The notes under the pieces: model-generated | The model's database searches: none | What the model was told of the DNA's origin: nothing | What the model saw: the letters and a program-made list of their open reading frames with translations, nothing else | Made by a program: the position numbers and the translations under genes | Assembly: GCA_030167865.1 (NCBI GenBank) | Contig: JALAGF010005657.1 | Coordinates: 62,001 to 94,130, forward strand | Reading direction: 5' to 3' | Length of the DNA: 32,130 nt | Source of the DNA: Craspedostauros australis | Lineage: Eukaryota | Shown here: positions 1,863 to 27,477 of the stretch, piece by piece | Numbering within the stretch: the first letter of the stretch is position 1 | How the letters are laid out: each line of letters opens with the position of its first letter

Positions 1863-3173
1863 ATGACGAGCCAATTCCTGAAGGCACTGTGGCTTCTTTG
1901 CGCCTGCGTCCTCACAGCAGCGAGCCAAAGAGTCACGGTGCTGCCACGTTTCTCTTTGTCCATGACGCTCGATCGATCGGATTTCGACAGGCAAATATTC
2001 CACAATGATCTGGAGGACATGGTCCACGAGCACCTCGAGGAGTTCTTTGACTGGAGACTTGGTGGCTTGAAGACAGAGTCAAACAGCGACGGCAACGGCA
2101 TATCGACTTCTATCACCCTTTCAGCGTCGTTGATGTGGGAGAACGGTCAGGACGAAGCGCAACAAAACTCCGAAGCAGCAGATGGTGACAAATCCAGGTC
2201 TAAAACAACCGGCGAATACAGCGCGTGGGCGCACTTCGACTCGCTTCTTTCAACCAGCCTGAAACAATCCGAAGTCTCCGACGCCATCCTCGAATTGCTC
2301 TTGATTGAAGCATTTCAAGGCGATAACTACGACAATTTGCTGAATGCCATTCTCGAGAAGGAAAGCCTGCAAGGTATCGAAGAGATGGATGTCTCTGTCC
2401 ATGCGGATGGCTACGACGGTTCCGGCCCCCAAAAGGCCGGAAAATGGTCCCAACCGCAGGACGCGAAACCCAGCCCTTGGACGTCAACCACCACGATCGG
2501 CCTTTGTGCGGCGGGTTTTTTCTTCATCTTGCTCTCTACGCTCTGGACGTATCTGCATTTCTTTGCGAACCGAAGACTGCTTGCCAAGGAAAACGACGAT
2601 CGGTCATCATCCATGCTGAAGCACGAGACGTCAACGGACGTGACATCCTCTGACAATGGTCAAGATGACTCGGATGCCGATTCCAACAAAAGCCAAGGTC
2701 ACGAAAATGACCGACCCACGAACGAGGAGAGATGGATGGATGCATGGGCCAAGTCCATGACCAGCATCAGCATCCGCGAACCGGCCAGACCAAAGAAGAA
2801 GAAACAAAAGTGCGTCCCGCGACCAGCTGCACGACAGTCTCTGAATTCGGTCCTGTCAATGATCGAAGAGGCAGATGGTGACGAGTCAACATGCGCATCA
2901 TCCGTCGCCAGCAAGCATTCGCAATCATCCCGCAGCAGAAAGGCGAAGAAGGCAGCGGCCAAGGATGATCTCGTGCTTTCGAAAGCGGACACCACATACG
3001 GCAAGCTCCAATCCATCGAGGAGGACGCTCAACAGCCAGTCAACCCAACGACGGTATTGAATGCCATCGCCCAGTTGTCGATCAACGAGATGTTCCATGC
3101 CAAACCTCAGACGCCGCAGGAACAAGATGATAGGATCGAAGACCTGCTGCCGGATCCAAGCGAATCAGTTTGA
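1863..3173 (+). CDS. type-I single-pass membrane protein of unknown function (436 aa)
   Basis: Intronless ORF. Signal peptide MTSQFLKALWLLCACVLTAAS, acidic luminal domain, one TM (IGLCAAGFFFILLSTLWTYLHFF) followed by basic NRR, and a long Ser/acidic disordered tail with a KKKKQK patch. Confidence 0.85.
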   Translation: MTSQFLKALWLLCACVLTAASQRVTVLPRFSLSMTLDRSDFDRQIFHNDLEDMVHEHLEEFFDWRLGGLKTESNSDGNGISTSITLSASLMWENGQDEAQQNSEAADGDKSRSKTTGEYSAWAHFDSLLSTSLKQSEVSDAILELLLIEAFQGDNYDNLLNAILEKESLQGIEEMDVSVHADGYDGSGPQKAGKWSQPQDAKPSPWTSTTTIGLCAAGFFFILLSTLWTYLHFFANRRLLAKENDDRSSSMLKHETSTDVTSSDNGQDDSDADSNKSQGHENDRPTNEERWMDAWAKSMTSISIREPARPKKKKQKCVPRPAARQSLNSVLSMIEEADGDESTCASSVASKHSQSSRSRKAKKAAAKDDLVLSKADTTYGKLQSIEEDAQQPVNPTTVLNAIAQLSINEMFHAKPQTPQEQDDRIEDLLPDPSESV

Positions 3174-5176: not shown

Positions 5177-5688
5177 GATGTTGTCAGATCACAATTGGAT
5201 CATCGTCGGATCATCGTCGGTCGAACCATCCAGCCGAATCCATCCAGAGATCTCATGCGCTCTGTCTGCAAGCGAGACGTGTCTGTTGGCGGTTTTTCGT
5301 TGGGCCCAGAATCCCCACGCCTCGTTTTGTGTTGCCAAACGTGTTAGGGTCACGATGCATACAAATTGTCCGATAACTCCATTCCAAGAAGCACAAATCC
5401 ACGACTCGGACTATAATGGCGCCTGATTTAGACGAGATGCACTGCAATTGAATAGACAAGAAGCTGGCGAGGAACGATCGACGTCACAAATTACCATGTT
5501 CTGTTCGCCAAAGATCGCGGCAGATGGGAGGAAGCCATCATCGTCCATCAGGGGAGGCACATCATGGAAGCGATGGCGGTGGTTCCGATTGTGATCCGTT
5601 GATGAGTTCGTCATAACCAACGATTATAAAGGCAAGAGGTGAAGCGACGGCATATAATAGAATAGAGCGGCGGACGACATTTGGAATC

Positions 5689-7281
5689 ATGAACCGAACG
5701 AGGACTTGCGGCAGCATGGTGATGAGATCACGGATCCGTCACGTTGATGGGCTGGGGTGGTTGATTGGGGCGCCAGGTTCTGTGGAATCATCGCTGCGAA
5801 GAATCGGTGACGCCCAACTGCGATGCCTCACATCTGGTGCTGCATTTCCTCTATTGAAGGATCAGCACCGTCAGCAGCACCGTCAGCAGCAGCGTTGGCA
5901 GACGACATATGGAACTGGTATGCCCAACGGCCACGCCAACACCCAGCGGCTTGCCGGTCGTCTTCGTCACCTGTCAAGCAGCAGCTCCGGTGGCAAGCCG
6001 AATGATAGCACCAGCGATGAAGACGGCGATGAAGCAGAAATGGCGTCCTATCCCACAAACGCGCCACCGTCCATGCCATTCATCAGCCACATCAAGAATC
6101 CCATCGTCCACCAGCTCTGGACGGCCCGTGAGCAGGCCAAGGATCAGAGTCGTCAGCAGCAGGTCAGCGAATGCTCCATCACCAAGACGCCAGCCGACTC
6201 GCAGATCTCCATCTCCTACCCTTTCTCAACAGATGCATTCGTGAGAGAGGCCTACCGCAACCCGTGGGGGCAGATGAGGTTTGGCAAGCTGCTGGAGGAC
6301 CTTGATGCGTTGGCAGGCAACATCGCCTTTCAGCACGTGCAGGATGTTAACCTCCAAATGGTCACGGCGTCCGTCGACCGCATCACCCTGTCGTCGCCAC
6401 CCAACTGCGAGATCGACCAGCATCTCACAGGCAAGGTCACCTACGTTGGCTCCTCCAGTTTGGAGATCCGCATGCAATGCTCATCGTCCAAGCCTGCTGG
6501 CGATGCCGACGACAAGGACGACTTCTGGCTGGAGGCATACTTCACCTTCGTTGCCACAGACCCCGTCACCAAGCGGCCTCTGAAGATCGCGCCCATTCAT
6601 CCAGAGACGGAGCTCGAACAACATTATTTCGATCAAGGCCAGGCAAGGGCTGTTGCCAAGAAGGTGGCGCGCAAGAGCAAGGCCCAACAGGGCGGTCCCA
6701 CTCCCGAGGCCAGCGAGGTCGAATCGATCGCTCAGGACCTGCTGCAGTCCGCCGCACCGCTCTTGAACATGCCGTCCCTCGCCGACCCCTACGCCATCCT
6801 CCAATCCTCGACGCAGATGCAGAACGCCGAGATCGCGCAACCGCAAGTTCGCAACCTCGCCAACCGCATCTTCGGCGGCTACCTGATGCGCAAGGCCTTC
6901 GAGATCGCCTTCAGCACGTGCTACGTCTTCGGCGGAGCTCGACCGCACTTCTTCGAGGTGGGCGACGTCTCGTTCCAAACCCCCGTGGACGTCGGCGATT
7001 TGGTGGTGTTCAATTCGCGCGTCCTGCATTCGTACGTCGAGCAGGACGGCAGCGTCGTGCAGTACGACCAGGTGCACGGACACGCCGATGTGCCTTTGGT
7101 CACCATCGTCGTCGACGCGTGGGTGACGGAGCCGGAAAAGGCACACGCTCGAAAATCGAATCAGTTCAATTTCACCTTCGCTCTGCCATCCGGCACGCAA
7201 TGTCGGAAGGTCATGCCATCCAATATTGACGAGGCGAGGCACATGGCGGAGCGCATCGTGTTGGACCGCAAGCGACATTGA
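5689..7281 (+). CDS. ACOT9: acyl-CoA thioesterase 9-like, double hotdog fold, probably mitochondrial (530 aa)
   Basis: Motifs YRNPWGQMRFGKLLEDLDALAG, VTASVDRI, VTYVGSSSLEI, RNLANRIFGGYLMRKAFE and FQTPVDVGDL are typical of ACOT9-type thioesterases. The Arg/Ser-rich N-terminal extension (RCLTS, RHLSSSS) resembles a mitochondrial presequence. Confidence 0.9.
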   Translation: MNRTRTCGSMVMRSRIRHVDGLGWLIGAPGSVESSLRRIGDAQLRCLTSGAAFPLLKDQHRQQHRQQQRWQTTYGTGMPNGHANTQRLAGRLRHLSSSSSGGKPNDSTSDEDGDEAEMASYPTNAPPSMPFISHIKNPIVHQLWTAREQAKDQSRQQQVSECSITKTPADSQISISYPFSTDAFVREAYRNPWGQMRFGKLLEDLDALAGNIAFQHVQDVNLQMVTASVDRITLSSPPNCEIDQHLTGKVTYVGSSSLEIRMQCSSSKPAGDADDKDDFWLEAYFTFVATDPVTKRPLKIAPIHPETELEQHYFDQGQARAVAKKVARKSKAQQGGPTPEASEVESIAQDLLQSAAPLLNMPSLADPYAILQSSTQMQNAEIAQPQVRNLANRIFGGYLMRKAFEIAFSTCYVFGGARPHFFEVGDVSFQTPVDVGDLVVFNSRVLHSYVEQDGSVVQYDQVHGHADVPLVTIVVDAWVTEPEKAHARKSNQFNFTFALPSGTQCRKVMPSNIDEARHMAERIVLDRKRH

Positions 7282-7918
7282 ACTCGCTAAAGGTTGGAGT
7301 TGAACGTCGTGATGCTGGATATGCTGCCCTTGCTTCCTCCCGGCCTCTGTCCACGTGTGAGTTGAATGAGTCGGCAGTGTTTCATTATCAGCAAAAGCGA
7401 AGAGCCGAGTCGTATTGAAATTGGGGTAGAGCACGTCTTGTAGTAAAGTATTGCGTACCACATTCGAAGACAAAACTACCATTACTCCAATAAATGACAG
7501 TACGAATCGATGATAAACTACACTGAGGTGTTTGACCATGGAACGTTGTTGAGGAGCTATGTTGTTGCGAGCACGATGCTTGGCATGCAGAGGCTGCTTT
7601 TGGAAAGAGCGCAATACGAGCGTGGAGAAGAGTAGAGCAGAGTTAAGTTGCTCCGCTTGTTATGAAGTTGAGAAAACTCTTGGAGGACGCGTGGAGAGCC
7701 CAGCTGTGTCATGTTCAGATACTCAAGGCTTGAAAGTAGGAATCGGAATAGAGTGCTCTACTCTGCGCATCTCTATTTCGGCGTACTAGTAGGTGTGTAT
7801 GATATGTGAAGAATGCATTGGAGTACTCTGCACGTGTTGATGCAGGACTGTGACTGTTTCCAATTGCACGAACGCTAATGAATGCGTTGTCTCCCTGTCT
7901 CGTTATTTCGTCAAGGCT

Positions 7919-10882
7919 TCATTTGTCATTGACATCAAATCCATGCCCGGGGTGATCATGAGTGGAACTGTTGGCATTCTGCTGTCGCGATCTTGTTGCG
8001 GACGACGCAGACGAGGAAGGTAGTTCCGTCGGTGCCAGTCCATGGGCGTCTTCCGCAGCAGCGGTGTGGATCAGATGGGGGCCGCCCTTCAGTACGGAGT
8101 TGTCTTCGCTGTAGCCGATGTTGCGCTTATCGTACACCTGAAGGTAGAACTGGTCGTTGTTCGTTTCACGATCAGCGCGATCGTGATTGGGCAAGCCATG
8201 ATCGTTCGCACCATCATCGCCGGCCTTCTGCGGCTCAGCATTGCCGTGCTGATACCTCCAGCCGACGTCCAGAACTTGGAGAATGCCATCCTCTGTCAGA
8301 TACGGTTGCCACGTCTGTTTGTAACGCTGCCGCTTCTGAAGGTACGAGGCCAGGCCGCTGATTGTCAACGCGATCACCAGCGTGCTCGTCAGCATCGCCA
8401 TGCCCAGCCATTCTCGCAGGGACCATGCGCCACCTGGTTCAAGATGTGAAGTGTACATCTTGCCCGTCGAACGAGTATCCTCGCTTGGACTGTGACTGCT
8501 ATCCGAGGAGCTCGAGGAACTGTCGTCGCTCGTTTCCTCTGGCGGCTTCGCCAAGGCGTCGGTTGTGTTCATCTCGCCACCTGCGGAGCACATGGCCAGG
8601 ACCTTCACGTGATCTTCACGTCGACGCGGCCGATCAACAGGCTGGCCATCTTCACCAAAGGTTTGGTTGCCTCCCCCTTGATCGGTAGTCGTGTTTTGTT
8701 GTGCACCGACATCATCCGATTCCGTTATGTTGCATTTGGACGCTGGTTTGAAGCCGTCTTCGCCTTTCTCTTGGAAGTAAGCGTGCAGCAGTCCCCATTC
8801 CTCTTGGTAGATGCCCTCCTCGAGCGTGACATCAAGCACCACCTGGCAAACGTGGGTGACATCCCTCAGGTACTTCTCATGCTTCAGGCTCTTTCCATCC
8901 ATCCAGAACACTGTATACATCACATCTACTCCGTACCAGTGGTACGTCGTTGTGTTTGTAAATCCATCCTGCGGGTCTTCGGTTGTTTCGTTCTTCCACC
9001 ACCTCGTGGCGTTGGTGGCGAATATGGGCCAGATTCTTGATTTGTGATGCTTGAGCCTCGACACCTTGTCCGTGGTCCTCAGCTGGATGTCTGGGTCGTT
9101 TTCTTTCAGCCGTCTGGTTTTGATGAGCGGCTCCGAGAAATCCAACACAACGACTGGCCTTGAGTCGGGGTCGACATTGGCGTTCCATTCCTTGTTGCCC
9201 TTGTGCGACACTTTATGCAGCGAGCGTCTGGGAGGTGGATGTGGAGGAGGTGGTCCGTGGTTCCCACCTTGTCCTGGGGGAGGGGGTCCAGGTCCTGGTG
9301 CAGATCGAGGCGGCGGGTTGGATGTTGGCGGAGGTCTGGGTGGAGCCCCGTCCGCCGCTCCATGGCCGCTATCATGGCTTGATGAGGATGAACTGCTGGA
9401 CTGGTTGTCAGGTTGATCTTCTTGTTCCAGACCCTCGATGCCAGCAACCAACCTACCTTTCAGGCGCACTTCGAAGGGCGAGAATTCATGGAGAATGTAC
9501 GTGGTGGTGTGTTTGACAAGCCTGTGAAAGTAGCGCTTCTGATCGAACATGAGGTCGTCCTTGGAATAGGACAGGGCGACGCTGAGTCGTTGAAGGACAG
9601 TGTTGGGTGGCAGGGGTGGTGGTGGTTGCGACGGGTCTACAGGAACAGATGGTGCATCACTGTCGCCGCCATCGCCTGATGCATCGGCACCGCCAATGTC
9701 GGACACTTCCGGTGTTGGTGCGTCGGTGGGTGAGGAAGTGTTATCTGGCCCCTGCACTTGGCCGTCTGAACCGGAGGGCGAAAGAGTAGGGGCGGTTGCG
9801 TCGTTGCCAATCGGTGGTCCCAAGCCCGTCGGTCCGGCTGTTTGGCAGTGCGGCATGAACGAGAAGGACTCACAGTCATAATCCGGATCCACTTCTGGAT
9901 CATATTGATCGTCCCAGCTGACATCGCTGCTGCTATCGCCATCGAAATCACTGAAGATCCCTTGGTTGTCACTGCCATCTCTTTCTGTGCTGGTCTCTGT
10001 ACTGCCAAGATGCGTAGCTTGAGAGTCCAAGCGGCGTGGGTGACGAGCAGCGCGATCGCGTTGAAGTCGCTCGCGTATCCTGCGAATAGCGTTCGCGTTA
10101 GACTGTTGTCGGTCTTCAGCGGAGGGCAGAGCGTAGCTGTGCGCATTCGGGTCACTTGGATACCCAGAACGCTGCATTGTTGAACTACCCACACCATGTG
10201 TCGCCACATCGAGCTCTCCAGCTTGCGTTAGTTGTGGCGATGATGAGACTTGCGCTTGTTGATCTTGATGCGCAGTGGATGATGACCTTCGTCTTTGTCG
10301 TCGCTTCTGCTGGGTGCCAGAGGCTGTGTGTTGCTGTTGATGTTGCTGTTGCTGGTGTTCATACGGGTGCTGATGTTGCTGTTGATGCCAATTGGTGTGT
10401 TCAACGTCTTCTCCACTTGAATCTATGAACTCATCGATGGCCGTGAGCGGCGCGATGGGCGCAACCGGACGGATGTACCTCCTGTGGTTTCGTTCGATGG
10501 AGACTGCGTGCGCAGGGGGTATCAGCTGGAACGAGGTCTCAGAAGCGAAAGAGTGTGGGAAGCCAGACGGTTGATTGTCATGTTGTTGCTGATGCTGTTG
10601 GCCCTGTTGGCTCTGTTGTGGATGGACTGCCTGCTTGGAGAGGTGGGAAGCTCTCGTGTGGGTGGCGCATAGAATCGCGACGGTGATTGCAGCAGCGTAG
10701 GAGGAGAGAGTGCTCGCGAACACTTTCACTCTCTGCCGCTGGCACTGTTGCTTTCGCTGTACACCTATTCGTCTCCTCCTGGTGGACACCTGTGTTTGTG
10801 TGACAATTGATTCCAGTGGCTGTTGTTGCTGGTGCTGTTGTTGCTGATGCGCCATCTGTGAGTTGGGGCGTTGGGTCACCAT
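7919..10882 (-). CDS. single-pass membrane protein A (987 aa from first ATG), paralog of 13554..15605, SAP-like (silicalemma-associated-protein-like) architecture
   Basis: ORF 7919..11692 begins at a GTG and its first ATG is at 10882 (MVTQRPNS). Contains a hydrophobic signal segment (VFASTLSSYAAAITVAILCATHT), Q/H-rich, acidic and Pro-rich low-complexity regions, RRL/RSL motifs, a Ser run, a TM (WLGMAMLTSTLVIALTISGLASYL) and a tail conserved with the paralog. Confidence 0.85.
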   Translation of the reverse strand: MVTQRPNSQMAHQQQQHQQQQPLESIVTQTQVSTRRRRIGVQRKQQCQRQRVKVFASTLSSYAAAITVAILCATHTRASHLSKQAVHPQQSQQGQQHQQQHDNQPSGFPHSFASETSFQLIPPAHAVSIERNHRRYIRPVAPIAPLTAIDEFIDSSGEDVEHTNWHQQQHQHPYEHQQQQHQQQHTASGTQQKRRQRRRSSSTAHQDQQAQVSSSPQLTQAGELDVATHGVGSSTMQRSGYPSDPNAHSYALPSAEDRQQSNANAIRRIRERLQRDRAARHPRRLDSQATHLGSTETSTERDGSDNQGIFSDFDGDSSSDVSWDDQYDPEVDPDYDCESFSFMPHCQTAGPTGLGPPIGNDATAPTLSPSGSDGQVQGPDNTSSPTDAPTPEVSDIGGADASGDGGDSDAPSVPVDPSQPPPPLPPNTVLQRLSVALSYSKDDLMFDQKRYFHRLVKHTTTYILHEFSPFEVRLKGRLVAGIEGLEQEDQPDNQSSSSSSSSHDSGHGAADGAPPRPPPTSNPPPRSAPGPGPPPPGQGGNHGPPPPHPPPRRSLHKVSHKGNKEWNANVDPDSRPVVVLDFSEPLIKTRRLKENDPDIQLRTTDKVSRLKHHKSRIWPIFATNATRWWKNETTEDPQDGFTNTTTYHWYGVDVMYTVFWMDGKSLKHEKYLRDVTHVCQVVLDVTLEEGIYQEEWGLLHAYFQEKGEDGFKPASKCNITESDDVGAQQNTTTDQGGGNQTFGEDGQPVDRPRRREDHVKVLAMCSAGGEMNTTDALAKPPEETSDDSSSSSSDSSHSPSEDTRSTGKMYTSHLEPGGAWSLREWLGMAMLTSTLVIALTISGLASYLQKRQRYKQTWQPYLTEDGILQVLDVGWRYQHGNAEPQKAGDDGANDHGLPNHDRADRETNNDQFYLQVYDKRNIGYSEDNSVLKGGPHLIHTAAAEDAHGLAPTELPSSSASSATRSRQQNANSSTHDHPGHGFDVNDK

Positions 10883-11497
10883 CCTGTGACTGGATGTCGT
10901 GGGTCGATGGAGTGCCAGCGAATGGGCGGACTCCCAGAGTGCTTGGGTGCAATCCAGGGTGTTCGTTTCCTGCGTTTCCTGCGTTCCCCTTGGGTGGCTG
11001 TTGCCTTGCTCCGGAGTACTAGTCGTTATACGAGCAGAGAGCCTCTGCCTCGTTTGCTTTGCCCGTGCTCCAAGGCACACAGATACGGTGCTCGTGGAGC
11101 GCTGTTCGCAGCGCACTGCTGGCACGAGCAATCGTTTCCGGAGGTGTGGCGTACGAGCTACTCGTAAGGTGGGCACTTGTGCGGATAGCACACCCTCTGG
11201 CCAACCAGTCCGCCTGCGCTCTGCTTGTCCCTTCTCGTTGCGTCTATCTCGACTTGTCCGCAATGAAGGCAGCGCCTCTTGCTTTGCTTTGCTTTGTTGG
11301 GAGACACAAGGGAGGCAAACTATTATGGTTTGGGGTGGCTTGGTATCGTATGATATCGTCTGGTATGGGATGGTGTGGGACGCTGACCGAAGCAGTCGCT
11401 GTTGTCTGCTTCTGGGATGTCCGTTCCTTCTGCTGTTGATGTCAATGCCTCTGTGGTTGCGGATGCCGTTTCTCCAATCTTGGGTCCTTGTTGCTGT

Positions 11498-11524
11498 GCT
11501 ACTGTTGCTACTGTTGCTACTGTG
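11498..11524. repeat. 9-bp tandem repeat (gctactgtt) x3
   Basis: gctactgtt gctactgtt gctactgtg, upstream of membrane protein A. Confidence 0.6.
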
Positions 11525-12665
11525 GCGTTGTGTGCGCAGTACATTCTTGTGTGGCGTCTTCTCCCTTGCTGTCGTCACAGTCCTCGGTGCGCTCTCTTGT
11601 GCCTCTCTGTCCTTGTCATGCACGTGCACAATGGTGGGAGACTCTGTTTTCGGCCTCTTTCTCACAGCGAACTCACCTTCACCGGCTTTCACGAGTCAAA
11701 GAACCATTCACTCTTCATCCGTGAGTACTAAAAACATCAACTCTGGACATAACTGCGACATTCCCGTTCGGCGGTAATTTGTTGTCGCTGATCAGTTCGG
11801 CTCCATGGGGTTGCTTCGCGCCAAAAACAGCACAAACCACTGGGTAGCGACTATCCACGGAAACAAATCTAGAGAGAGACATCGTGGTGGGCAATTGGTG
11901 GGCGTCGACGCAATCGCAATCCTGTTTTGCGTAGCGGGGGATCAGTCAACAGCATCGCGGGCAGAGCTGATTCCATCTTACCAGCAAGCTTGTTGTCAAA
12001 ATATCGGCAACGAAAGACCGGCATGGGAAGATCATATCGTGTCAGACCTGGTCGGCACCAACCAACTCGACCCATCAATCGATCCGACTCCATTCAACTT
12101 GCCGGTGTCTCGACTGTTTACAGGAGTGTCTGATCACTCACAATACCCATTCTTCTTGGCGCACCTCGTTCATGAATGAATGCACAAAAGCGTACCATGT
12201 ACACTCTCCGTGTACGATCTATTCGTCCAATCGAAGCCGTTCGTGTTGGAATGTGGACAAACGAAGACAAGGACAAACCGTCCTGTTTCCACAACCGTGT
12301 TTCGAGCCTCCAAGCATCAGCACCATCCAATCCCAAAGAGGGGAGGACGTTGAAATGGGCATACGGGTGTGTTACCGTACGCCATTTCTGGCCGAACCTC
12401 CATCATCGAATCGAGGCTGACCATTTCCTGTTGCCCGGCCATCACAGTATTTCCTTCAACGCACGCAGGAACGCCCGTTGTCTGTGCAAGCACGAGTCCA
12501 CCACGCTCTGTGAACATGTTGGTTGGAGCGCCTCCAGGTATCTGTGCATCCTACAGCTCGTATTGGTGGCAACCAGCCATCCAAGCAGGCTGCGGTCTGA
12601 AATCGTCCCGCCGACAAAATGCTTGCTGTTGTTGGGGACTGCGATCATGGAGTTGAGCAGCTCGC

Positions 12666-12690
12666 AGAGTAGAGTAGAGTAGAGCAGAGC
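12666..12690. repeat. (AGAGT/AGAGC)5 pentanucleotide microsatellite
   Basis: agagt agagt agagt agagc agagc in the divergent intergenic region. Confidence 0.7.
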
Positions 12691-13553
12691 AATCGATTCT
12701 TTGGTGCTGCCGGAATGGTTGCGCCATGTGCCAATTGGGGTACAGCCATCATGCTCGTTCCATGCGAGTACGGGTGCGAGTGCTCGTAGCCACCAATTGT
12801 CGCTGCATCCAAGGCGTGGCTGCCGCTTCCCCCTTCCTCTGCGTCCTTCCGTGAAGTGTTTTCGCTCAACATTGAACAGGGATTGTGAGCAACACACGAC
12901 AAGCAACATCAATCGTGCCAAACTCGTATCAATCATTTCCTCTGTGGACCAATCAGCTTCTGCCGTTCGTTCCATTCGTGCATAATGCGCAACAAAAAGT
13001 GGCGAAAGCGTGCCAAAACAGGAGCGATTTCCCTTGTTTGGGAGAGATGTTTGTTTTCCACGATGTGCCCATGTGATGTGGGCGCAAAGTCGCACGATCG
13101 AAATGGAGGGACACAGAACAACGCTGCAATGCGCGTACTCGTAACCAGAACATACCCAAATCCCAAGACCAACACAGAAAGCAGAAGCATGGCACGTGCA
13201 TCGCCGAAGTCGGCATGAACAGTAGCATCAAAGGCTCCAGAAAGGAACAGGAATAGGAATAGAAAAAGGCGTGAAAAGAGAAGTGACTGCTTCCACCGCA
13301 CTGTCCCACACCACAAAGTGGAGAGGTCGACCAGCTGACGTCTACTCTCGAGAGAGCGAGTGCCCGCACCATACGTTTGCTCAAGTAGCTCGTACACACC
13401 ATACTTTTTTATTTTTCAATACTACTCAACTCCCCAATTGACCTGTGGGCCAAATCCATCACGCGACACCTTCATGCTTACCAAGAGTTTACATCAATAG
13501 CCCAGATCAACATAGTTCATCGACCTGTCTTTCCAAACAAACTGGCAGTCAAC

Positions 13554-15605
13554 ATGGTCAGACCTTCCAATCGACGCATCCTCATCAGCGTCGCCTTCAT
13601 CGCGCAGCTTCTCTCGCAGTGCCATCCAGCGCACTGCTCGATGGATGGCAGTCCACGTGACGGCGCCGTCCAGCTGAGAAATCAGCAACAGCATGCAGAC
13701 CATGAACACTCCCAACTAGAACCGATCAACAGCAATGGCGATGGAGACGGCAACAACAACAGCAACTCATCTGCGGAAGCAACATTCCTGACTTTGCCAG
13801 CGCTGTCACTCGTCGGTACCGATCAAAGAAACGATGACGATACCCTGTTGTCAGAGGCGGATTCAGCGTCCACAGAACAACGCAATGATGCCGATGACAC
13901 AATCGAGGACGGGAACGATCTATCCACATACCTCTATCACAAGAGATATGTGAAGAGCGGCTCGTCCTCCCCGCGCATGCGTCAATCCTCCCAAAGCAAA
14001 AGCCGCGGCAGGAGACGCAAGCAGAAGCAGCCACCTAGAAGCAGGAGAAAGGAAGGCACACAAAACGGGAACCTTTCGGGTACTGATGGAGATCAACCAC
14101 CCGGAACCACCGCAGGCACAGACAGCTACGATCCCGGCGATGCGCCAGATTTCGACTGTCACAAGTACGCCGAGTACCTCGACATCGTCTGCGAGGACGA
14201 AGCGCCGCCTTCAGACAACCTTGGTTCCACCGACGATCCCCCAACCGTAAGTCCCACCATGGATGCGACGCGAACTGATGAGACGCAGGGTCCCATCGTT
14301 GGTGTGGAGACGCCGCCACCATTGCCAGCCAACAACATGGCGGTCGACCTCAGCATCGCACTCACGCACGACATCGTGCCGATGGGTGCAGATCAGGTGG
14401 AGTACTTCCGATCAGTTATCGAGAAAGTCACGACACGACTGCTTGACGAGGAGACTCAATTCGAAGTCTTGTCCAAGGGCGCAAACGCGCAAGGTCAACA
14501 GAACGGCACCACGAGGTCTTTGAGCGTGAGACGCAGTGGCCACAAAAGTTACCGACAGCGGCATTCGCAGGGCAGGCGCGACCTGGGCACGAGCAGGGAG
14601 AGCGAAGACGACAGAAAGCTCTCGAGATTGAAGCATTCCTCCACCATCATCAACGCAATCGCATCGATAGATGGCTTGCAGCTTCGAGATGGGGACGTTG
14701 TTGCCAGCACATTCCATTGGTACTCCGTGCAGGTTTACTACGACACCTTCTGGATGTCGGGGCAGTCCATGAAGAAGGAAGATCTCGTGGAGCAGATCCG
14801 CTACACCTGCCAGGCAGTCATTGACTACAATGTCATGTCAGGCAAGTACACCAAGAAGCTTCGACACGTCATCGACCTTGACCACAGAGCTGACGAGAGC
14901 GCTTTCTCCGTCTCCGACACCGAGATGGTTGACATCATGGCCTCGGCATCAGCGGGCAACGAAGCGCGCACCGTCGATGACATATCAAAGGAGGCCACAA
15001 GGCGGGCCTCGACGAGCTCCGACTCGTCTGATACGTCTTCCAGCGGCGACTCGGGTACCACGAGCTCCTACGACTTCAGCGATGAAGTGGGATACCAAGA
15101 ATTGAGGTTGGATCCGTATGCGCCCTGGTCCGCTCGCGAGTGGCTTGGTCTGGTCCTATTGGTCGTCACCGCATCATTCGGAGTCGGCTTGCCGCTCGTT
15201 GCTTCCTTCCTACGATCTCGTGAAGAAAGGGAAAGGACGTGGGCGCAAAATGCTTACCTCACCGAAGAAGGCCTCAAAGAGGTGCTGGATGTCGGTTGGA
15301 GGTACAAGTACGAAGATCCGGAGCAGCACATTGCAAAGCACGGAGGAGGAGATGTCAACGGTCATGTTGATGCTGATGTCGACGTTAACGGTGCTGCCGT
15401 TGGTGCTGGTGCGAACGCATCTGTCGACCCCCAGTTCTTCTTGCAGATTTTCGAGAAGGGGAAGGTTGGATACAACGAGGACAATTCTGTTCTACGTGGT
15501 GGGCCGCATGTAGTGCACGCGGCCGTCGGAGTGAGTCAGAACGACCCGACGGTTCCAACCGCGAGCACATCTTCAAGCCGCATGACCCCACAGCACCGGA
15601 ATTAG
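13554..15605 (+). CDS. single-pass membrane protein B (683 aa), paralog of 7919..10882, SAP-like architecture
   Basis: Intronless ORF. Signal peptide MVRPSNRRILISVAFIAQLLSQCHPAHC, acidic and basic patches, RSL/RDL/RKL motifs, Ser-rich juxtamembrane stretch, TM (WLGLVLLVVTASFGVGLPLVASFL), and several blocks colinear with protein A. Confidence 0.88.
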   Translation: MVRPSNRRILISVAFIAQLLSQCHPAHCSMDGSPRDGAVQLRNQQQHADHEHSQLEPINSNGDGDGNNNSNSSAEATFLTLPALSLVGTDQRNDDDTLLSEADSASTEQRNDADDTIEDGNDLSTYLYHKRYVKSGSSSPRMRQSSQSKSRGRRRKQKQPPRSRRKEGTQNGNLSGTDGDQPPGTTAGTDSYDPGDAPDFDCHKYAEYLDIVCEDEAPPSDNLGSTDDPPTVSPTMDATRTDETQGPIVGVETPPPLPANNMAVDLSIALTHDIVPMGADQVEYFRSVIEKVTTRLLDEETQFEVLSKGANAQGQQNGTTRSLSVRRSGHKSYRQRHSQGRRDLGTSRESEDDRKLSRLKHSSTIINAIASIDGLQLRDGDVVASTFHWYSVQVYYDTFWMSGQSMKKEDLVEQIRYTCQAVIDYNVMSGKYTKKLRHVIDLDHRADESAFSVSDTEMVDIMASASAGNEARTVDDISKEATRRASTSSDSSDTSSSGDSGTTSSYDFSDEVGYQELRLDPYAPWSAREWLGLVLLVVTASFGVGLPLVASFLRSREERERTWAQNAYLTEEGLKEVLDVGWRYKYEDPEQHIAKHGGGDVNGHVDADVDVNGAAVGAGANASVDPQFFLQIFEKGKVGYNEDNSVLRGGPHVVHAAVGVSQNDPTVPTASTSSSRMTPQHRN

Positions 15606-16499
15606 AACCACTATCCACACCAACATCAGCATCCGTCGATGCCAAGGCGATGGTCCCGAACGCTGAAATGCGGAGATGGAAAGGTTTTGGTTCAGTTCTT
15701 GGTACCATACCACGCGATACCATCCGAGTACGAATCTCGACGACTCCACATACTATGTACCTATGCTCTGGTGGGATCCTCCTCCCGAAGCGCACATGTA
15801 CACGCACACACAATTTTGCATACACCATACAAACTCTTGAATTATTATACTATTAGATGATTAATTTACACACGATCGTGGACAAACAAACTGTTCCGTG
15901 GAGTGCATAGAGAAATGTGCACATAAAGTGAATCGCAGGTCCATGATGGGTTCCGACCTCCACACTTCGATTCTACCGTGAGTCGCAGTATCTCTCATGC
16001 GTACTCATACTCATGCATGTGTATCTACTCTTTGCGCAATTTAGGTGCGACGGTGTATCCATACTTCGTGGGATGAGTATGGTTCGAGCATATTCACGAC
16101 ATTGGAGAAACTCCAATGGTGCACTCCACTATGCCAACACCCAACACCCAAGCATGAAACAGCTCATGGTGAATGGAGTTGTGTGAGTCAACAGCATTTT
16201 GCATTCACCTTGGTGCGATTCTGGTTCACTCGTTGCTCCAATTGCTCTGTACTCCATTTTTTGGCGTGAGCGCACGGCAATGTGGCTGCGACTCCAAAAG
16301 GCAAGTCGCAACTTGTTTCATCAAACAACAACTATCGTGGTGTGGGTGTCAGAATCGTGACGGAGAGCGAGAGCGAAGACAATGCGCATCAATGTGTCCC
16401 GAGAAAAGTCAACGTTAGAATGAAAGTGAAAGTCAGCTCATAAATCAATAGCACTCCTCGCCAACACAACATACACACAGTGGTACCATTTCAACGACA

Positions 16500-17543
16500 A
16501 TGATGCACAACATCCAACTTCCGTTGCTCCTTCTGGCCATCCTTTTGCCAGCTCACTCGCGAGAGCTGCTGCGGAACAGGGACGATGCCTATGACAATGG
16601 CAAGTTCGTGCCTTCCTTCGCTGTGGAAGGAAGCTCGTTGTCGCAGGACGGTGCCGATGAAGATGACCTCGACTACGACACGAATCCCTTTTGGCTTCGC
16701 CGCATTCAGGAGGTGAGTTCTTCTCTCACGGTGTCTGACGACTCGGAGCCATCCAACGACGGCATCGACATTGGCGGCGACCCGAATGAGAGCAAGGACG
16801 AAGACCGAGACGGCCACAACGCCGATGGATCGAACGACGCGGCGAGCTTGGAGATCATTGACGTGGGATGTCGCAGTGAGATTGACCCGTTCCAATCCGA
16901 CTGGACCATCGAGCTTGTAGGCTACACGACGGATATGTCTGAGGCGGAGATGTCCGAACTCGAAACTGTTTTTATCGAGGCGCACAACATCGTGGCGCAA
17001 GGCATGAGCTGCAAGGCCCTGGAGCGTGAGGTCCAGAGCGCGACGCTGGCGTTGGATTTCAATGACCCCAGCAACGACTCCTCCCGTTTCATGAGACAGC
17101 GCAAGTTGCGCGCGCAGACCGAATCTCGAGACTTGATCGACGTTCCAAGCGCTGCGCGCACGTTGATTGAGTCAGAGGCACAAACCTCAGTGTACGAAGG
17201 AAGCATCGTCGTGGATGGTACCTGCAACGGTTGTCCCGAGGCATGGACGGGCGAAACCAGGCCAGAAGTGGCAACTGCGGTGCGTGGAGGCCTCCGCCAT
17301 CAAGAAAAAGAGCCGCGTGATCCAGAGAGCGCGAGGAGAGAGGCAAGGGCAGGCCGACCCATGCCATTTGCGAAAGCATCGCGAGGGCAGGATGCGGCGG
17401 ATTCCACCATTTGCTCGTGCACGGTGGACGAAGTGGCGGAACTGCCGGATGCTGGAAAGATCCTGAGAGAGATGAAGAGGCTGGTGAAGCAATCCACTGA
17501 TCTCCCCAACATCGTCGACGTGGTCGATCTCCGACGCAAATAA
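16500..17543 (+). CDS. secreted acidic protein with RXL motifs and a Cys-containing domain, function unknown (347 aa)
   Basis: Signal peptide MMHNIQLPLLLLAILLPAHS followed directly by REL. Asp-rich N-region, LETVFIEAHN...SC...REV, RKL and RDL motifs, VDGTCNGCP and CSC. No TM seen. Confidence 0.85.
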   Translation: MMHNIQLPLLLLAILLPAHSRELLRNRDDAYDNGKFVPSFAVEGSSLSQDGADEDDLDYDTNPFWLRRIQEVSSSLTVSDDSEPSNDGIDIGGDPNESKDEDRDGHNADGSNDAASLEIIDVGCRSEIDPFQSDWTIELVGYTTDMSEAEMSELETVFIEAHNIVAQGMSCKALEREVQSATLALDFNDPSNDSSRFMRQRKLRAQTESRDLIDVPSAARTLIESEAQTSVYEGSIVVDGTCNGCPEAWTGETRPEVATAVRGGLRHQEKEPRDPESARREARAGRPMPFAKASRGQDAADSTICSCTVDEVAELPDAGKILREMKRLVKQSTDLPNIVDVVDLRRK

Positions 17544-17594: not shown

Positions 17595-18291
17595 CGGAGA
17601 CGGAATCCTGCCCCCTCGCACAAGAGGAGTCGTTGCCGCTTAGCATTGGTAACAGCGATCGTACTACGCGTAGTAACCCCAACCAAAGTTGTATCCACTC
17701 GCACTCGCGCTCGCTTTGAACCATCGCAACAACCACCATCCCTGTCCAAAGAGGTCTCTGTTGTTCCGAGATCGATGCCATGCAGACGTGTCAGGGCAAA
17801 GAGAGCCAAGAACTTGGCGAGACAGAAATTTCTTCGGCTGTGTTCGTTGGGATTCGTTTCGACGTTCGCATCATTCATCTGTCTGTCCATCCACCCGAAA
17901 TTAAATCGAATTGATCAAATGGCCAACACAAAAGATCGAAGCGCAAAGAAAAATGATGATGTCTTGCGTCTTGCGTCTTTCACCATCTCTCCAGCATCAT
18001 CATTGCTGCCACGCAGTCCCTTTCGCACAAGTTTGACTGTCATTCAATTGACTCCGGCACAGAGAGGCATTGCTTCCACCACCACAAGCTCGCCGCACCT
18101 GCACAGATACAAACACTACTTTATTCGAGTATCATCAGAGTGCCCATTTGAAGCATTGGCACCTTCGACGGCATACCACTATTCAACTCGCACATACGTA
18201 CAACAAATATCAACGAGAAGGTCGCAAACACCGTCCGCCAAGGCAAAGAAGGGCAGCGCCACGACCGGAGGGAGCGCAAGAAGCAGGCAGG

Positions 18292-21200
18292 ATGGTGACC
18301 GCCTTGATGCACCCGAAGGAGTGCGACTCGAAGCGCATCGAGGAGGTGTCGCTGTACAAGCCGAAGCTCGCGGCAGGCAGCAAGGACAGGCGCATCCGCC
18401 TCTACACCATCGTGTTCATCGCGCTGTACGTGTACCAGTCCATCTGGGTGCTGTCGACCATCGGCGAGCCGTACCGCAAGTTCCTGGAGAAGGCGGACCG
18501 CGAGGGCTTCCAGGTGATGGAGGGAGCCACGCGCCTGCGCGCGGAGCTGGAGCACTCCTTCCAGGACATCAACGATCCCAACCGCCGCACGAAGAAGCTC
18601 GGCTGGATGGACTGGATGGACATGGACATCGAGGAGCTCGCCGCCGAGAAGAAGAAGGACAAGGAGAAGTCCTTCCTCGACAGCCTGCCCAAGAGGATGC
18701 GCGTCCCCTCCAAGTACGCTCCATCCTTCACGCCGTCCCTCATGCTCGGCATTCTCGCGACCATCCACGCGCTCGTGCTCCTCATGCAGCACTGGTCCGT
18801 CGGCTTCAACGTATGGATCAACTACCAGGAGATGGACGCGGAGGCGGTGGACCTGCCGGAGGACATCATGGAGCTGGATCTGGACGAGGATGCGCCCGCG
18901 CCATCGGCCAAGCATGCCGCCAAGAGCGATGGGCACTACGTGGACAGATCCATCAAGAACATGCCGGTCAGCATGCCCACGCACGCCAGGGTCGTCCCCG
19001 CCAAGGGCTACCACGTCCTCATCCCGCTCGACTACCTCCCCACCTTGGGCATGACCTTCGAATACCATCGCCGCCGCTACGCCTACGACGCAGACTCCGC
19101 CACGTGGCAAAAGATCCGCTGCCGCACCAACTTCCCCATGGACTTCCTGGCCACCTGGGACGGATTCAAATCGGACATCCATCTCGAATCTGGAAAGATC
19201 AGATACGGTTCCAACAAGTTCAGCGTCAAGCAACCCACGTTCTCCGAGCTATACAAGAAGCAGCTCCTCAGCCCCTTCACGGTCTTCCAGATCTTCTGCG
19301 TCGGTCTCTGGTTGCTCGATGACTATTGGCAGTACAGTTTCTTCACGCTCTTCATGGTGCTCACCTTCGAGGCCACTGTCGTCTTCTCCAGGATCAAGAG
19401 CCTGGGCGCCCTGCGCGGCATGGGCAACAAGGCCCGACCTGTTTACGTTTACCGTCTTGGTCGTTGGACCCCGTGCGAAACGCCGGATCTCTTGCCGGGC
19501 GACATCATGAGTCTCACCCGGGTCAAGCCGCACTTCGCCAAGGCTGGCGACGACAGCAAAAAAGGAAAGGACGATGACAAGAACAAAGACAAAGACAAGG
19601 ACAAAGATACGAAGGTGGCAAAGCGAAAGGTCGGTGGAAAGGTGGAGGACGAAGGTGGAGACATTGTGCCTGCCGATCTGCTCCTGCTCAAGGGTTCCTT
19701 GGTCGTCAACGAGGCCAGTTTGACAGGAGAATCCGTGCCCCAAATGAAGGAGGGTCTCGTGGAGCTCGACCAAGATGAAAAGTTTCAGATGAAGACACGC
19801 CACAAGATGAGCGTCGCCTACGCTGGCACCAAGATGCTCCAGTGCAAGGGGGTGGCCGAGGTTGCCGCCCAGCATCTGGATGAGAGCATCTCCTACGCCA
19901 GCATTCCCAATCCACCAGACAATGGCTGCATCTGCTTCGTTCTGCGCACGGGATTCTCATCCGCACAAGGAAAGCTCGTGCGAATGATCGAAGGTTCGCA
20001 GGAGAAGGTCAAGGGCCACGAGCGTGAAACTGGCTTGCTTCTGCTGCTACTCTTCGTCTTCGCCGTGGCGAGTTCCTCCTACGTCCTGTATCATGGACTC
20101 AACGACGAGAACCGAAGCCAGTACGAGCTGCTGTTGCATTGCATCCTCATCATCACCAGCGTCATCCCGCCAGAGCTTCCCATGCAGGTGAGTCAAAATC
20201 TGGGATTGTGTGCGATTTTCTTTCAGTATGATTTCACGACGCTTTGTATGCTCGCGTTCGTTTTGAGCTGGCTTGATGTAGCACGACGATGCAGGAACAC
20301 GCAACTGATGTCATGATTCCACGCACACGATCATGAACGCTATGCTGTTATCGCACCCACCTGCAGATGACATGTACCACACTCGTACCATACGTTCATC
20401 TCACCAAACGTTCGAACCCGATCTCACGCACTCTTCTCATTCTCGATCCACAACACGTATGCACACATACACCTACATGTACACACGCACATACACATAC
20501 GCACACGAACGCGCACTCGCATTTACCATCCTCCGAGTACAGACCGCACTTGCTGTCAACAACAGTCTCATGACGCTGATGAAAATGCACATCTTCTGCA
20601 CGGAGCCGTTCCGTGTCCCCATTGCTGGAAAGCTTGATGCATGCCTCTTCGACAAGACCGGAACCCTCACAACAGATGAACTTGTTGCTGTGGGTGTCTT
20701 TCCCCCGTCAGAGCTCAAGAATGCAAAAGCCAACGAGACTGGCGAGGCCAGCGGCAACGCAGCAGACACCTTGACGTCCATGCCGAAGGTGCAAGCGAGC
20801 GCTGCGCTCGTTCTGGCCGGTTGTCATTCGTTGGTGAATATCGAAGGTGAAACGACAGGAGATCCATTGGAACAGGCAGCACTGACATCGATGAGATGGT
20901 GCCTATCGGAAGAAACTGGGTACGCCATGCCAGCAGATGAAACCGGCAAGAAGGCAGCCGGTAAGCCGATCAATCTGCAGGGCACCAACATCTCTAAGCT
21001 GGAAATCCTGGCGAGGCACCATTTCAGTTCCAAGCTTCAGAGAATGAGCTGCGTCGTTCGAGATGTTCAATTGAGCAACCACTACGCTGTCGCAAAGGGA
21101 TCGCCGGAGGCCATCGGCCGTCTGCTGGCAGAAAAGCCTGCCAACTACGACGAAGCCGCAGCGATGCTTTCGAAGGAGGGGTTCCGCGTCATTGCACTTG

Positions 21201-26990: not shown

Positions 26991-27477
26991 CGAAGAGAGG
27001 AAAGAAACGAGGAGAAAGCACAAAAGCGCCCAACCGCTCTCGTTGAGACAACCCAAAACGTGGCACACGACGGATTGGTTGTTCCCCAAAGAGGACATTC
27101 GCCTCTTGCAAAACGAACTGCGACCGTGACTTCGGTGGAGTTCGACGAGGAGAGAGGGGTGATTGATCTCTTCGCATAGAGATACCTGTTCGGACATACG
27201 ACTACATCGTACACTAAGCACTGAGTGTATGTAATACTTGTGCTCTGCAATCCTATTGTACGACCACTCTCCCAGTATCCAGTCCTTCGAACACCAACGG
27301 CATCCCACATTTTGGAGGGACTGTGAAAAGGAAGCAACATTGTGTTCTGCAACTGTCTCGACTTGGTTTTCATCAGCCCTGGCGTCCAGTTGCGTGGTCC
27401 GCAGACAGCACACGGTGGTCCGCTTTCGGCGCATCGAACACTCTACGGACGATACTACCAATACCTACGCATTGACG

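What the first reader, a model, noticed from the sequence alone, without database searches (positions are those of the whole stretch)
7919..15605. Head-to-head pair of paralogous single-pass membrane proteins with silicalemma-associated (SAP-like) architecture
Seen: the two divergent genes (starts about 2.7 kb apart) share colinear blocks: YDPEVDPDYDC..C / YDPGDAPDFDC..C; PPPLPPN..LSVALS..DQKRYF..FEV / PPPLPAN..LSIALT..DQVEYF..FEV; SRLKH; YHWYGVDVMYTVFWMDG..VCQVVLD / FHWYSVQVYYDTFWMSG..TCQAVID; SAGGE / SAGNE; a Ser-rich run; WSLREWLG / WSAREWLG + TM; and a conserved tail. At LDVGWRY the DNA differs only at three synonymous third positions (ctg gac gtc ggc tgg agg tat vs ctg gat gtc ggt tgg agg tac), suggesting an old duplication under purifying selection. 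Established: diatom Silicalemma Associated Proteins and silicanins are signal-peptide, single-TM proteins of the silica deposition vesicle, and RXL sites mark processed diatom biosilica proteins. Inference: a co-regulated, possibly heteromeric pair acting in frustule morphogenesis. The family assignment rests on architecture only.
Basis: partly seen in the sequence, partly recalled or inferred. Interest (0 to 1): 0.75.

Follow-up and report, generated by a model that had tools for sequence, protein, structure and literature searches.

The report
Diatom SEA-like membrane protein family
Two neighbouring, anciently duplicated diatom genes belong to an apparently undescribed family of predicted single-pass membrane proteins with a predicted mucin-type SEA-like domain that is likely cut by a protease; they are probably not the known silicalemma (SAP) proteins, and a role in building the silica wall is untested.

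Summary
The pair is real. A (10882-7919, minus, 987 aa) and B (13554-15605, plus, 683 aa) are divergent open frames, about 30% identical (E 6e-43), with saturated synonymous sites. They are two of three paralogs in this genome. A profile search found 169 relatives at 50% clustering; the 4 of 30 looked up that carry a species name are Nitzschia or Cylindrotheca. No Pfam family fits. A deep-alignment model of B (pLDDT 75.5) gives a luminal ferredoxin-like domain whose best structural matches are mostly SEA(-like) domains of cell-surface proteins (Z 5.2-7.2, modest). A variable loop inside it carries R-x-L in 66 of 97 members against 30 by shuffling. The cytosolic tail holds two strongly conserved blocks. 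SAP membership is not supported: the proteins are 2-6 times larger, the tail is longer, and the Ser run is not a family trait (1 of 84). SAP sequences could not be compared directly. Best reading: an undescribed diatom family of likely protease-cut, SEA-type transmembrane linkers. The silica role, co-regulation and a heteromer are untested.

The parts
7919..10882 (-). Gene A, 987 aa from the first ATG (109 kDa, pI 5.9); one open frame; second possible ATG at 10855
10649..10723 (-). A residues 54-78: hydrophobic stretch behind a long leader; likely signal peptide with long n-region, or signal anchor (inferred)
   Evidence: hydropathy peak 1.8; coordinates
9845..9874 (-). A Cys337-Cys346 pair, likely a disulfide loop; a Cys pair lies upstream of the domain in 49 of 84 complete relatives
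8579..9625 (-). A residues 420-768: SEA-like domain by homology to B, interrupted by long low-complexity insertions
9068..9454 (-). A residues 477-605: variable loop, Pro-rich, with R-x-L at 553 and 590
8474..8536 (-). A Ser-rich run in the stalk (11 Ser in the best 20 residues)
8348..8407 (-). A predicted transmembrane helix (826-845)
8075..8317 (-). A cytosolic tail: conserved block 1 (856-876) and block 2 (911-936) with a variable linker
10883..13553 (.). 2,671-nt spacer between the divergent starts; no Rfam match reaches its gathering score and no repeat beyond chance level was found
13554..15605 (+). Gene B, 683 aa (75 kDa, pI 5.0); one open frame
13554..13637 (+). B residues 1-28: likely signal peptide (inferred from hydropathy)
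14157..14192 (+). B Cys202-Cys213 pair
14313..14957 (+). B residues 254-468: predicted ferredoxin-like (SEA-like) luminal domain; core pLDDT mostly 80-98
14481..14624 (+). B residues 310-357: disordered loop with R-x-L at 321, 342 and 354; the first aligns with the family's conserved R-x-L column
15009..15068 (+). B Ser-rich run in the stalk (11 Ser in 20)
15144..15203 (+). B predicted transmembrane helix (531-550); Gly532 invariant in 110 rows, Thr539, Leu546 and Ala550 columns conserved (one helix face, inferred)
15240..15503 (+). B cytosolic tail: block 1 (563-584; Leu578 invariant, Gly581 and Trp582 in over 95%) and block 2 (627-650; Lys635, Tyr640, Ser645, Gly649 and Gly650 in over 90%)

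Best explanation
A and B are old paralogs of a diatom family of predicted type I membrane proteins that likely work as protease-cut, SEA-type transmembrane linkers: a predicted SEA-like domain would sit in the lumen or outside the cell, would be cut at the R-x-L loop, and the conserved cytosolic tail would dock a partner inside the cell. Steps: (1) entry into the secretory pathway (inferred from hydropathy; 50 of 76 Met-starting complete relatives have an N-terminal hydrophobic stretch). (2) A low-complexity N-terminal region, a Cys pair, then a folded ferredoxin-like domain next to the membrane (predicted with good confidence). (3) Cleavage at R-x-L inside the domain by the still unknown diatom R-x-L protease (motif enrichment shown; cleavage inferred). 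The first strand and helix of the domain lie before the loop and the rest after it, so the two pieces would stay clasped without a covalent link and the large N-terminal piece could be shed or left in a matrix (inferred by analogy with mucins and Notch). (4) The two tail blocks, the most conserved part of the family, bind a cytosolic adaptor, sorting or cytoskeletal factor (inferred). A and B lie head to head most simply because of an old local inverted duplication. The compartment is open; my rough odds are cell surface or mucilage 0.4, silica deposition vesicle 0.3, other endomembrane 0.3.
For: A-B homology. Third paralog. 169 relatives at E<=0.001, 77 at <=1e-10. Of the 150 listed hits, 149 match the tail profile, 143 the TM, 114 the second half of the domain and 84 all four blocks (these profiles were built from 110 rows of the family itself). 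Model with pLDDT 75.5, 154 of 409 residues at 90 or more. Of the top 27 structural rows, 3 are titled SEA domains, 7 are PCDH15, IA-2 or Trop2 (called SEA-like in the passages of PMC6586460), and 5 more (MUC16, TMPRSS6, CELSR1, Gpr126, SorCS2) I recall as SEA(-like); 12 are other proteins. The ESM Atlas gives Pfam SEA clusters as the best named lead, at 0.77, for B and for a Nitzschia relative (a lead only). R-x-L in the loop: 66 of 97 rows, shuffled mean 29.7, maximum 45; with a second basic residue 39 of 97 against 8.8; the stalk, which is shorter, has it in 2 of 97. Removal of R-x-L propeptides by an unknown protease is reported for silaffins (PMC5525289).
Against: All Z-scores are under 8, which the tool says may mean only a common arrangement, and unrelated ferredoxin-like folds (PheRS, RbfA, MscS-type channels, HMG-CoA reductase) score within about 1 Z unit. 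31 of 97 members have no R-x-L in the loop, and a few have almost no loop. The loop appears to precede the long strand hairpin, whereas I recall the MUC1 self-cleavage site lying in the hairpin itself; strand pairing was inferred from the secondary-structure list, not from coordinates. One relative (P0109) lacks the domain altogether. No localisation or processing data exist for any member.
Confidence: 0.6

Rival explanations
1. They are silica deposition vesicle membrane proteins that work like SAP1/3 or Sin1 without being members of either family: the cut N-terminal piece is embedded in silica and the tail binds a cytosolic patterning factor such as a dAnk.
For: Type I architecture, acidic pI (5.0 and 5.9), Ser runs in A and B, and family-wide R-x-L. 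PMC5647440 states that R-x-L sites had been found only in biosilica-associated proteins. The dAnk receptors are unidentified SDV transmembrane proteins (PMC9894196). The genome is that of a silicifier (92 matches to the silicon transporter family).
Against: No expression or localisation data. The Ser run is not a family trait (1 of 84). A search of five PMC9894196 supplements for six family words found none, though those files may hold no sequences.
Confidence: 0.3
2. They are distant true SAPs: SAPs would be short members of the same superfamily that lost the folded domain.
For: P0109 (311 aa, 12.2% Ser) has a signal stretch, R-x-L right behind it, a Ser/Gly-rich lumen without the domain, then this family's TM and a short tail. 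That is the SAP layout described in PMC10503012.
Against: SAPs are 17-40 kDa and 12-25% Ser, with tails of 58-68 aa in Cyclotella. A and B are 109 and 75 kDa, 10-11% Ser, with tails of about 142 and 133 aa; the family medians are 598 aa, 8.3% Ser and a 107-aa tail. Only 1 of the 150 listed hits has the SAP layout. SAPs are reported mainly from centric species, while the four named relatives here are Nitzschia and Cylindrotheca.
Confidence: 0.12
3. They are pennate cell-surface anchors that link secreted adhesive mucilage to the cortical actin-myosin system used for adhesion or gliding, in the manner of dystroglycan.
For: All 4 named relatives among 30 looked up are raphid pennates (the grouping is recalled). 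The trail proteins of Craspedostauros lack a membrane anchor. Dystroglycan, with an SEA-like domain, links matrix to actin.
Against: 26 of 30 relatives carry no species name, and those named come from one diatom family, so the range is unknown. No known cytoskeleton-binding family matches the tail.
Confidence: 0.17
4. They are signalling receptors of the mucin or Notch type (for example in mate or surface sensing), activated by shedding, with the tail as the signalling end.
For: Juxtamembrane SEA-like domains act as proteolytic switches in several receptors and in yeast Msb2. The Pseudo-nitzschia mating protein MRP1 was predicted to resemble an SEA domain.
Against: The tail has no recognised signalling domain. 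MRP1 itself was not compared.
Confidence: 0.12
5. A and B form a dedicated, co-regulated heteromer driven by a shared bidirectional promoter.
For: They have stayed adjacent although synonymous sites are saturated (pS 0.73), and A has a closer relative in another organism (P0004; SH-aLRT 99), so the adjacency is probably old. One face of the TM helix is conserved.
Against: The starts are 2.7 kb apart. The only exact shared 12-mer upstream of both is a common word in this genome (79 copies, reversed control 57). The third paralog has no family neighbour within the 16 kb read around it, and L018 has none in 8 kb upstream.
Confidence: 0.15

Closest known systems
SEA/SEA-like juxtamembrane domain proteins (MUC1/MUC16 mucins, type II serine proteases, Notch HD, dystroglycan, PCDH15 MAD12, IA-2, Trop2/EpCAM; yeast Msb2/Hkr1)
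   Same: Predicted ferredoxin-like domain next to one TM helix, behind a low-complexity ectodomain, with a candidate protease site inside the domain.
   Different: No sequence match to Pfam SEA. No mucin-type Gly-Ser self-cleavage word in the variable loop (0 of 97; the hairpin turn was not scanned). The site is a diatom R-x-L in a long loop that appears to lie before the hairpin. The two-block tail matches no Pfam family.
Silicalemma Associated Proteins (TpSAP1-3, CcSAP1-3)
   Same: Signal stretch, R-x-L, a Ser run, one TM helix and a conserved segment right after it.
   Different: 2-6 times larger; a folded luminal domain instead of a Ser/Gly-rich tract; a longer tail with two conserved blocks spanning about 90 residues instead of one of 23-28; Ser run not conserved. 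Direct sequence comparison was not possible.
Silicanin-1 and SiMat7-like proteins
   Same: Type I membrane protein with R-x-L, processed proteolytically.
   Different: Sin1 has 18 conserved Cys, an NQ-rich lumen and a 20-aa tail, and SiMat7-like proteins have 8 conserved Cys. A has 6 Cys and B 3 behind the signal stretch, with tails over 130 aa.
Pseudo-nitzschia multistriata MRP1
   Same: A diatom protein reported to resemble an SEA domain by predicted structure.
   Different: Described as a small domain proposed for pheromone signalling; not compared with this family here.

Membership tests
SAP (Tesson 2017) | [quoted passage not shown] | tested here: met
   Hydropathy only: one strong TM in each; B has an N-terminal stretch, A has one at 54-72 behind a long leader.
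SAP (Tesson 2017) | Luminal segment highly enriched in Ser (18 of 23, 36 of 51 or 14 of 20 in TpSAPs; 12-25% Ser overall) | tested here: not met
   Best window 11 of 20 in A and in B, 6 of 20 in the third paralog; 10.4% and 11.3% Ser. Family: 1 of 84 with 10 or more Ser in 20 stalk residues, median 8.3% Ser.
SAP (Tesson 2017) | R-x-L site in the N-terminal part after the signal peptide | tested here: inconclusive
   R-x-L is present, but deep in the lumen: A at 283, 553, 590; B at 295, 321, 342, 354; none right behind the signal stretch.
SAP (Tesson 2017) | Small size (17-40 kDa) and short tail (58-68 aa in CcSAPs) | tested here: not met
   109 and 75 kDa; tails about 142 and 133 aa; family median 598 aa with a 107-aa tail, minimum 68.
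SAP (Tesson 2017) | Sequence similarity to the 23-28-aa conserved cytoplasmic SAP domain | not testable with these tools
   SAP sequences are in figures that are not held. Indirectly, 1 of 150 profile hits has the SAP layout; 19 further hits were not listed, and the profile came from three sequences.
SAP (Tesson 2017) | Localisation at the silicalemma and expression during valve formation | not testable with these tools
   Needs GFP with PDMPO and a synchronised time course.
Silicanin / SiMat7-like | 8 or 18 conserved luminal Cys and a short cytosolic tail | tested here: not met
   Cys counts; the family alignment shows one half-conserved Cys in the domain (50 of 110) and one upstream pair (49 of 84).
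SEA/SEA-like domain proteins | Ferredoxin-like alpha/beta sandwich next to the membrane on the outer side | tested here: met
   Predicted model; Z 6.6, rmsd 3.5 A over 111 of 122 residues to MUC16 SEA5; Z 7.2, rmsd 3.3 A over 102 residues to SorCS2. The fold is met; common ancestry is not shown at Z under 8.
SEA/SEA-like domain proteins | Sequence match to Pfam SEA (PF01390) | tested here: not met
   No family for A or B at E<=1; no SEA match among 71 members at E<=0.01.
SEA/SEA-like domain proteins | Mucin-type autoproteolytic Gly-Ser site (canonical SEA only; pattern recalled) | tested here: inconclusive
   0 of 97 in the variable loop; the hairpin turn was not scanned by pattern. Notch's SEA-like domain also lacks the site.
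SEA/SEA-like domain proteins | Cleavage in the domain with the pieces staying associated | not testable with these tools
   Needs biochemistry.

The most novel reading that the evidence does not exclude
This is a diatom (possibly raphid-pennate) family of mucin- or Notch-like clasp proteins in which the diatom R-x-L processing signal has been built into an SEA-like domain. It would be one of the missing transmembrane links between a luminal or secreted matrix (the forming silica wall, or gliding mucilage) and cytosolic machinery such as dAnks or actin-myosin, with the invariant tail as the docking site.
Probability: 0.25. Interest if true: 0.75.

Novelty: new variant of a known kind. Interest (0 to 1): 0.45.

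Why it matters
Transmembrane proteins that pass information between the cytosol and the silica vesicle (the dAnk receptors, PMC9894196) are unidentified, and the adhesive trail proteins of a gliding diatom lack a membrane anchor. This family offers a concrete candidate, with a predicted folded domain, a statistically supported processing site and invariant tail residues to mutate. It also puts R-x-L, described as a propeptide or post-tail site of biosilica proteins, inside a folded domain. The head-to-head pair itself is ordinary: a local inverted duplication in a three-member family. With no functional data the interest is moderate.

Tried and rejected
Word-index protein searches found nothing for B whole or its TM and tail and only one known member for alignment A4. 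No PDB sequence matched the family profile at E<=10. Foldseek on the model gave no match at E<=0.001. A model from three sequences was unusable (pLDDT 40). The Atlas structure search on a poor Atlas model of P0060 gave only TM under 0.5.

Complex prediction of the TM and tail of B with those of A: no answer (score 0.00, alignments not used, partner fold uncertain). It is no evidence either way.

Expression: no RNA holder is listed on record. The one run, X1, is only guessed to be RNA. Of its 20 laid pieces 8 are shown; they match without substitutions and cover the 3' end of A with 234 nt beyond the stop (7685-8173), the 3' end of B with 235 nt beyond the stop (14953-15840), part of the spacer (12005-12711) and 15853-17091. 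This says nothing on levels or co-regulation.

Site-1 protease as the R-x-L protease: PF23090 found nothing in the genome or in the controls, so the idea is left open.

Spacer: no Rfam match near its gathering score; the shared 12-mer is a common genomic word; no long repeats.

Synteny: the first metagenome scan found no relative. The second gave 13 loci, of which only L018 has long upstream DNA. More paralogs: own-genome searches with two distant members and with B's domain found only the same three genes; five weak loci were not confirmed by the family profile.

The neighbours at 1863-3173 and 16500-17543 do not match the family profile. Earlier scan findings: none. Literature searches showed no description of this family; most subscription journals are not covered.
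Full report
OBSERVATION. The window holds two long divergent open frames: A, 7919-11695 on the minus strand with its first ATG at 10882 (987 aa), and B, 13389-15605 on the plus strand, read from the ATG at 13554 (683 aa). The starts are 2,672 nt apart, or 2,699 from A's second ATG. BLASTP gives two colinear segments: 29.8% over 373 columns (E 6e-43) and 28.6% over 182 (E 3e-12). The Smith-Waterman score is 505, against at most 73 in 200 shuffles. Over 200 codons of four blocks chosen for conservation, pS is 0.73 (saturated) and dN 0.55. The duplication is old and the blocks are under purifying selection, with the caveat that the blocks were picked for being conserved.

HOST AND PARALOGS. The genome has 92 matches to the silicon transporter family (matches, not copy numbers). 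With the named relatives below, this makes a diatom the likely host. B's TM and tail find exactly three places in the genome: B, A and a third gene C on contig C5819 (831 aa, clear N-terminal hydrophobic stretch). Three more searches found no fourth member. C has no family neighbour in the 16 kb read around it.

THE FAMILY. Pfam has nothing for A or B or, beyond four single weak hits, for 71 members. A profile of the three paralogs found 169 representatives at E<=0.001 among 1.84 billion, of which 150 were listed; one of them (P0134) matches none of the family blocks and is probably false. I looked up 30 of the 150. Four carry a species name: Nitzschia inconspicua twice, Nitzschia sp. Nitz4 and Cylindrotheca closterium. 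Four clusters have MMETSP entries without species, and the rest are unnamed. All names are 'hypothetical' or 'uncharacterized'. In an alignment of 110 rows (B segment, A, C and 107 longer hits) the conserved parts are the two halves of a luminal domain, the TM helix with an invariant Gly, and two tail blocks with an invariant Leu and several near-invariant Gly, Trp, Lys, Tyr and Ser positions. Among the 84 hits with all four blocks the median length is 598 aa, the median tail 107 aa and the median Ser content 8.3%; 49 have a Cys pair upstream of the domain, and only 1 has 10 or more Ser in 20 stalk residues. Trees (110 rows by FastTree; 50 of those rows by IQ-TREE quick search) place A with P0004 (SH-aLRT 99), these two with B (97), C with P0005 (98), and all five together (95). 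So the A-B split probably predates the separation from P0004's organism, and the three paralogs arose within one sub-lineage of the family. The root is only a midpoint.

STRUCTURE. With the 110-row alignment, B residues 252-660 fold with mean pLDDT 75.5. The order is strand, helix, short strand, a disordered loop of about 45 residues, a long strand hairpin, two helices and a strand, then the stalk, the TM helix and a tail with a short helix and two strands. The wide structural search gave Z 5.2-7.2 for the luminal part. Among the top 27 rows, 3 are titled SEA domains, 7 are PCDH15, IA-2 or Trop2 (SEA-like according to PMC6586460), 5 more I recall as SEA(-like), and 12 are other proteins, many with ferredoxin-like folds. 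The second look at Foldseek's candidates put PCDH15 at ranks 1, 3 and 4. No Z reaches 8, so the fold class is supported but common ancestry with animal SEA domains is not shown. The ESM Atlas gives SEA clusters as the best named lead at 0.77. The tail was barely tested by these searches.

PROCESSING SITE. In the 97 of 110 rows with both flanks, the variable loop holds R-x-L in 66 (shuffled mean 29.7, maximum 45 in 200 rounds) and R-x-L with a second basic residue in 39 (8.8; maximum 16); the shorter stalk holds it in 2. A has two such sites in the loop, B three and C two. Rows are related, so these counts overstate independence. A mucin-type self-cleavage word was found in 0 of 97 loops. The loop seems to lie before the hairpin, not in it; this comes from the secondary-structure list and the alignment, not from coordinates.

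MECHANISM. Shown: homology, family conservation and motif enrichment. Predicted: topology and fold. Inferred: cleavage at R-x-L, a non-covalent clasp of the two pieces, shedding or deposition of the N-terminal piece, and a cytosolic partner for the tail. The compartment is unknown.

COMPARISON WITH SAP AND SILICANIN. SAPs are defined by a signal peptide, a Ser-rich lumen, R-x-L, one TM helix and a 28-aa conserved segment after it. They are 17-40 kDa and 12-25% Ser, have 58-68-aa tails in Cyclotella and occur mainly in centric species. A and B share the outline but fail on size, tail length and Ser content, and have a folded domain where SAPs have a Ser/Gly tract. One relative, P0109, has lost the domain and shows the SAP layout, which keeps a distant link open. 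The SAP sequences are in figures that the library does not hold, so the decisive tail comparison was not made. Silicanins are excluded by Cys pattern and tail length.

THE PAIR. Nothing in the spacer points to a shared control element. The one distant locus with long upstream DNA, L018, has a single member and no divergent partner within 8 kb. Adjacency is best read as the trace of an old inverted duplication; co-regulation is untested.

LITERATURE SEEN. PMC5647440: parts 1, 2, 4 and 5 of 6 and the supplement text. PMC10503012: passages and supplement text. PMC9894196: passages, and a word search of five supplements. PMC5525289, PMC6586460, PMC7335047, 10.1101/2021.09.18.460806, 10.1101/2023.03.06.531300, 10.64898/2026.03.25.714164 and 10.64898/2026.05.06.723240: passages only. 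Pei and Grishin 2017 was not read; it is cited in PMC6586460. bioRxiv supplements were closed; the silica and trail proteome tables there could hold members of this family. A search for 'diatom' with 'SEA domain' returned 6 papers (5 listed), of which only the MRP1 preprint concerns a protein. No description of this family turned up.

VERDICT. Observation confirmed; SAP label not supported; an apparently undescribed diatom family of predicted SEA-like type I membrane proteins with a conserved R-x-L loop and tail. New variant of a known kind; interest 0.45.

Noticed in passing
G000, whole genome: 92 matches to the silicon transporter family PF03842, nine of them covering nearly the whole model and many partial. 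This may be a large SIT expansion, or allelic and fragmented assembly.
   Followed up: no
window 1863-3173 (+): 436-aa protein with a signal stretch, a mixed strand/helix region, one TM helix and a long charged tail; by eye a second SEA-like type I protein. No Pfam family over cut-off and no match to this family.
   Followed up: partly
window 16500-17543 (+): 347-aa protein with a signal stretch, several R-x-L-type sites and paired Cys, without a TM helix; no Pfam match, unrelated to the family. It lies 0.9 kb downstream of B.
   Followed up: partly
window 10883-11695 (-): A's frame stays open for 271 codons upstream of its first ATG, without a third-position GC bias; a long 5' leader or an unrecognised 5' exon is possible.
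   Followed up: partly
window 12005-12711: A 707-nt contig of run X1 (RNA only by guess) lies in the middle of the spacer between A and B; if it is RNA, there is an unannotated transcript or long leader there.
   Followed up: no
P0109: A 311-aa family member without the luminal domain, with R-x-L right behind the signal stretch and a Ser/Gly-rich lumen, which is the SAP layout; its closest relative in the FastTree tree, P0128, keeps at least the first half of the domain.
   Followed up: partly
L006:4396-8322 (-), just left of the window: Two tandem, very similar genes (593 and 545 aa open frames) with one N-terminal hydrophobic stretch each and no Pfam match; by eye type II Golgi-like proteins.
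   Followed up: no
window 18052-23779 (+); 27235-30558 (+); 5617-7281 (+): A P5A-type ATPase in several exons and an HSF-domain protein; the third looks by eye like a double hotdog acyl-CoA thioesterase but had no Pfam hit at E<=0.01.
   Followed up: partly
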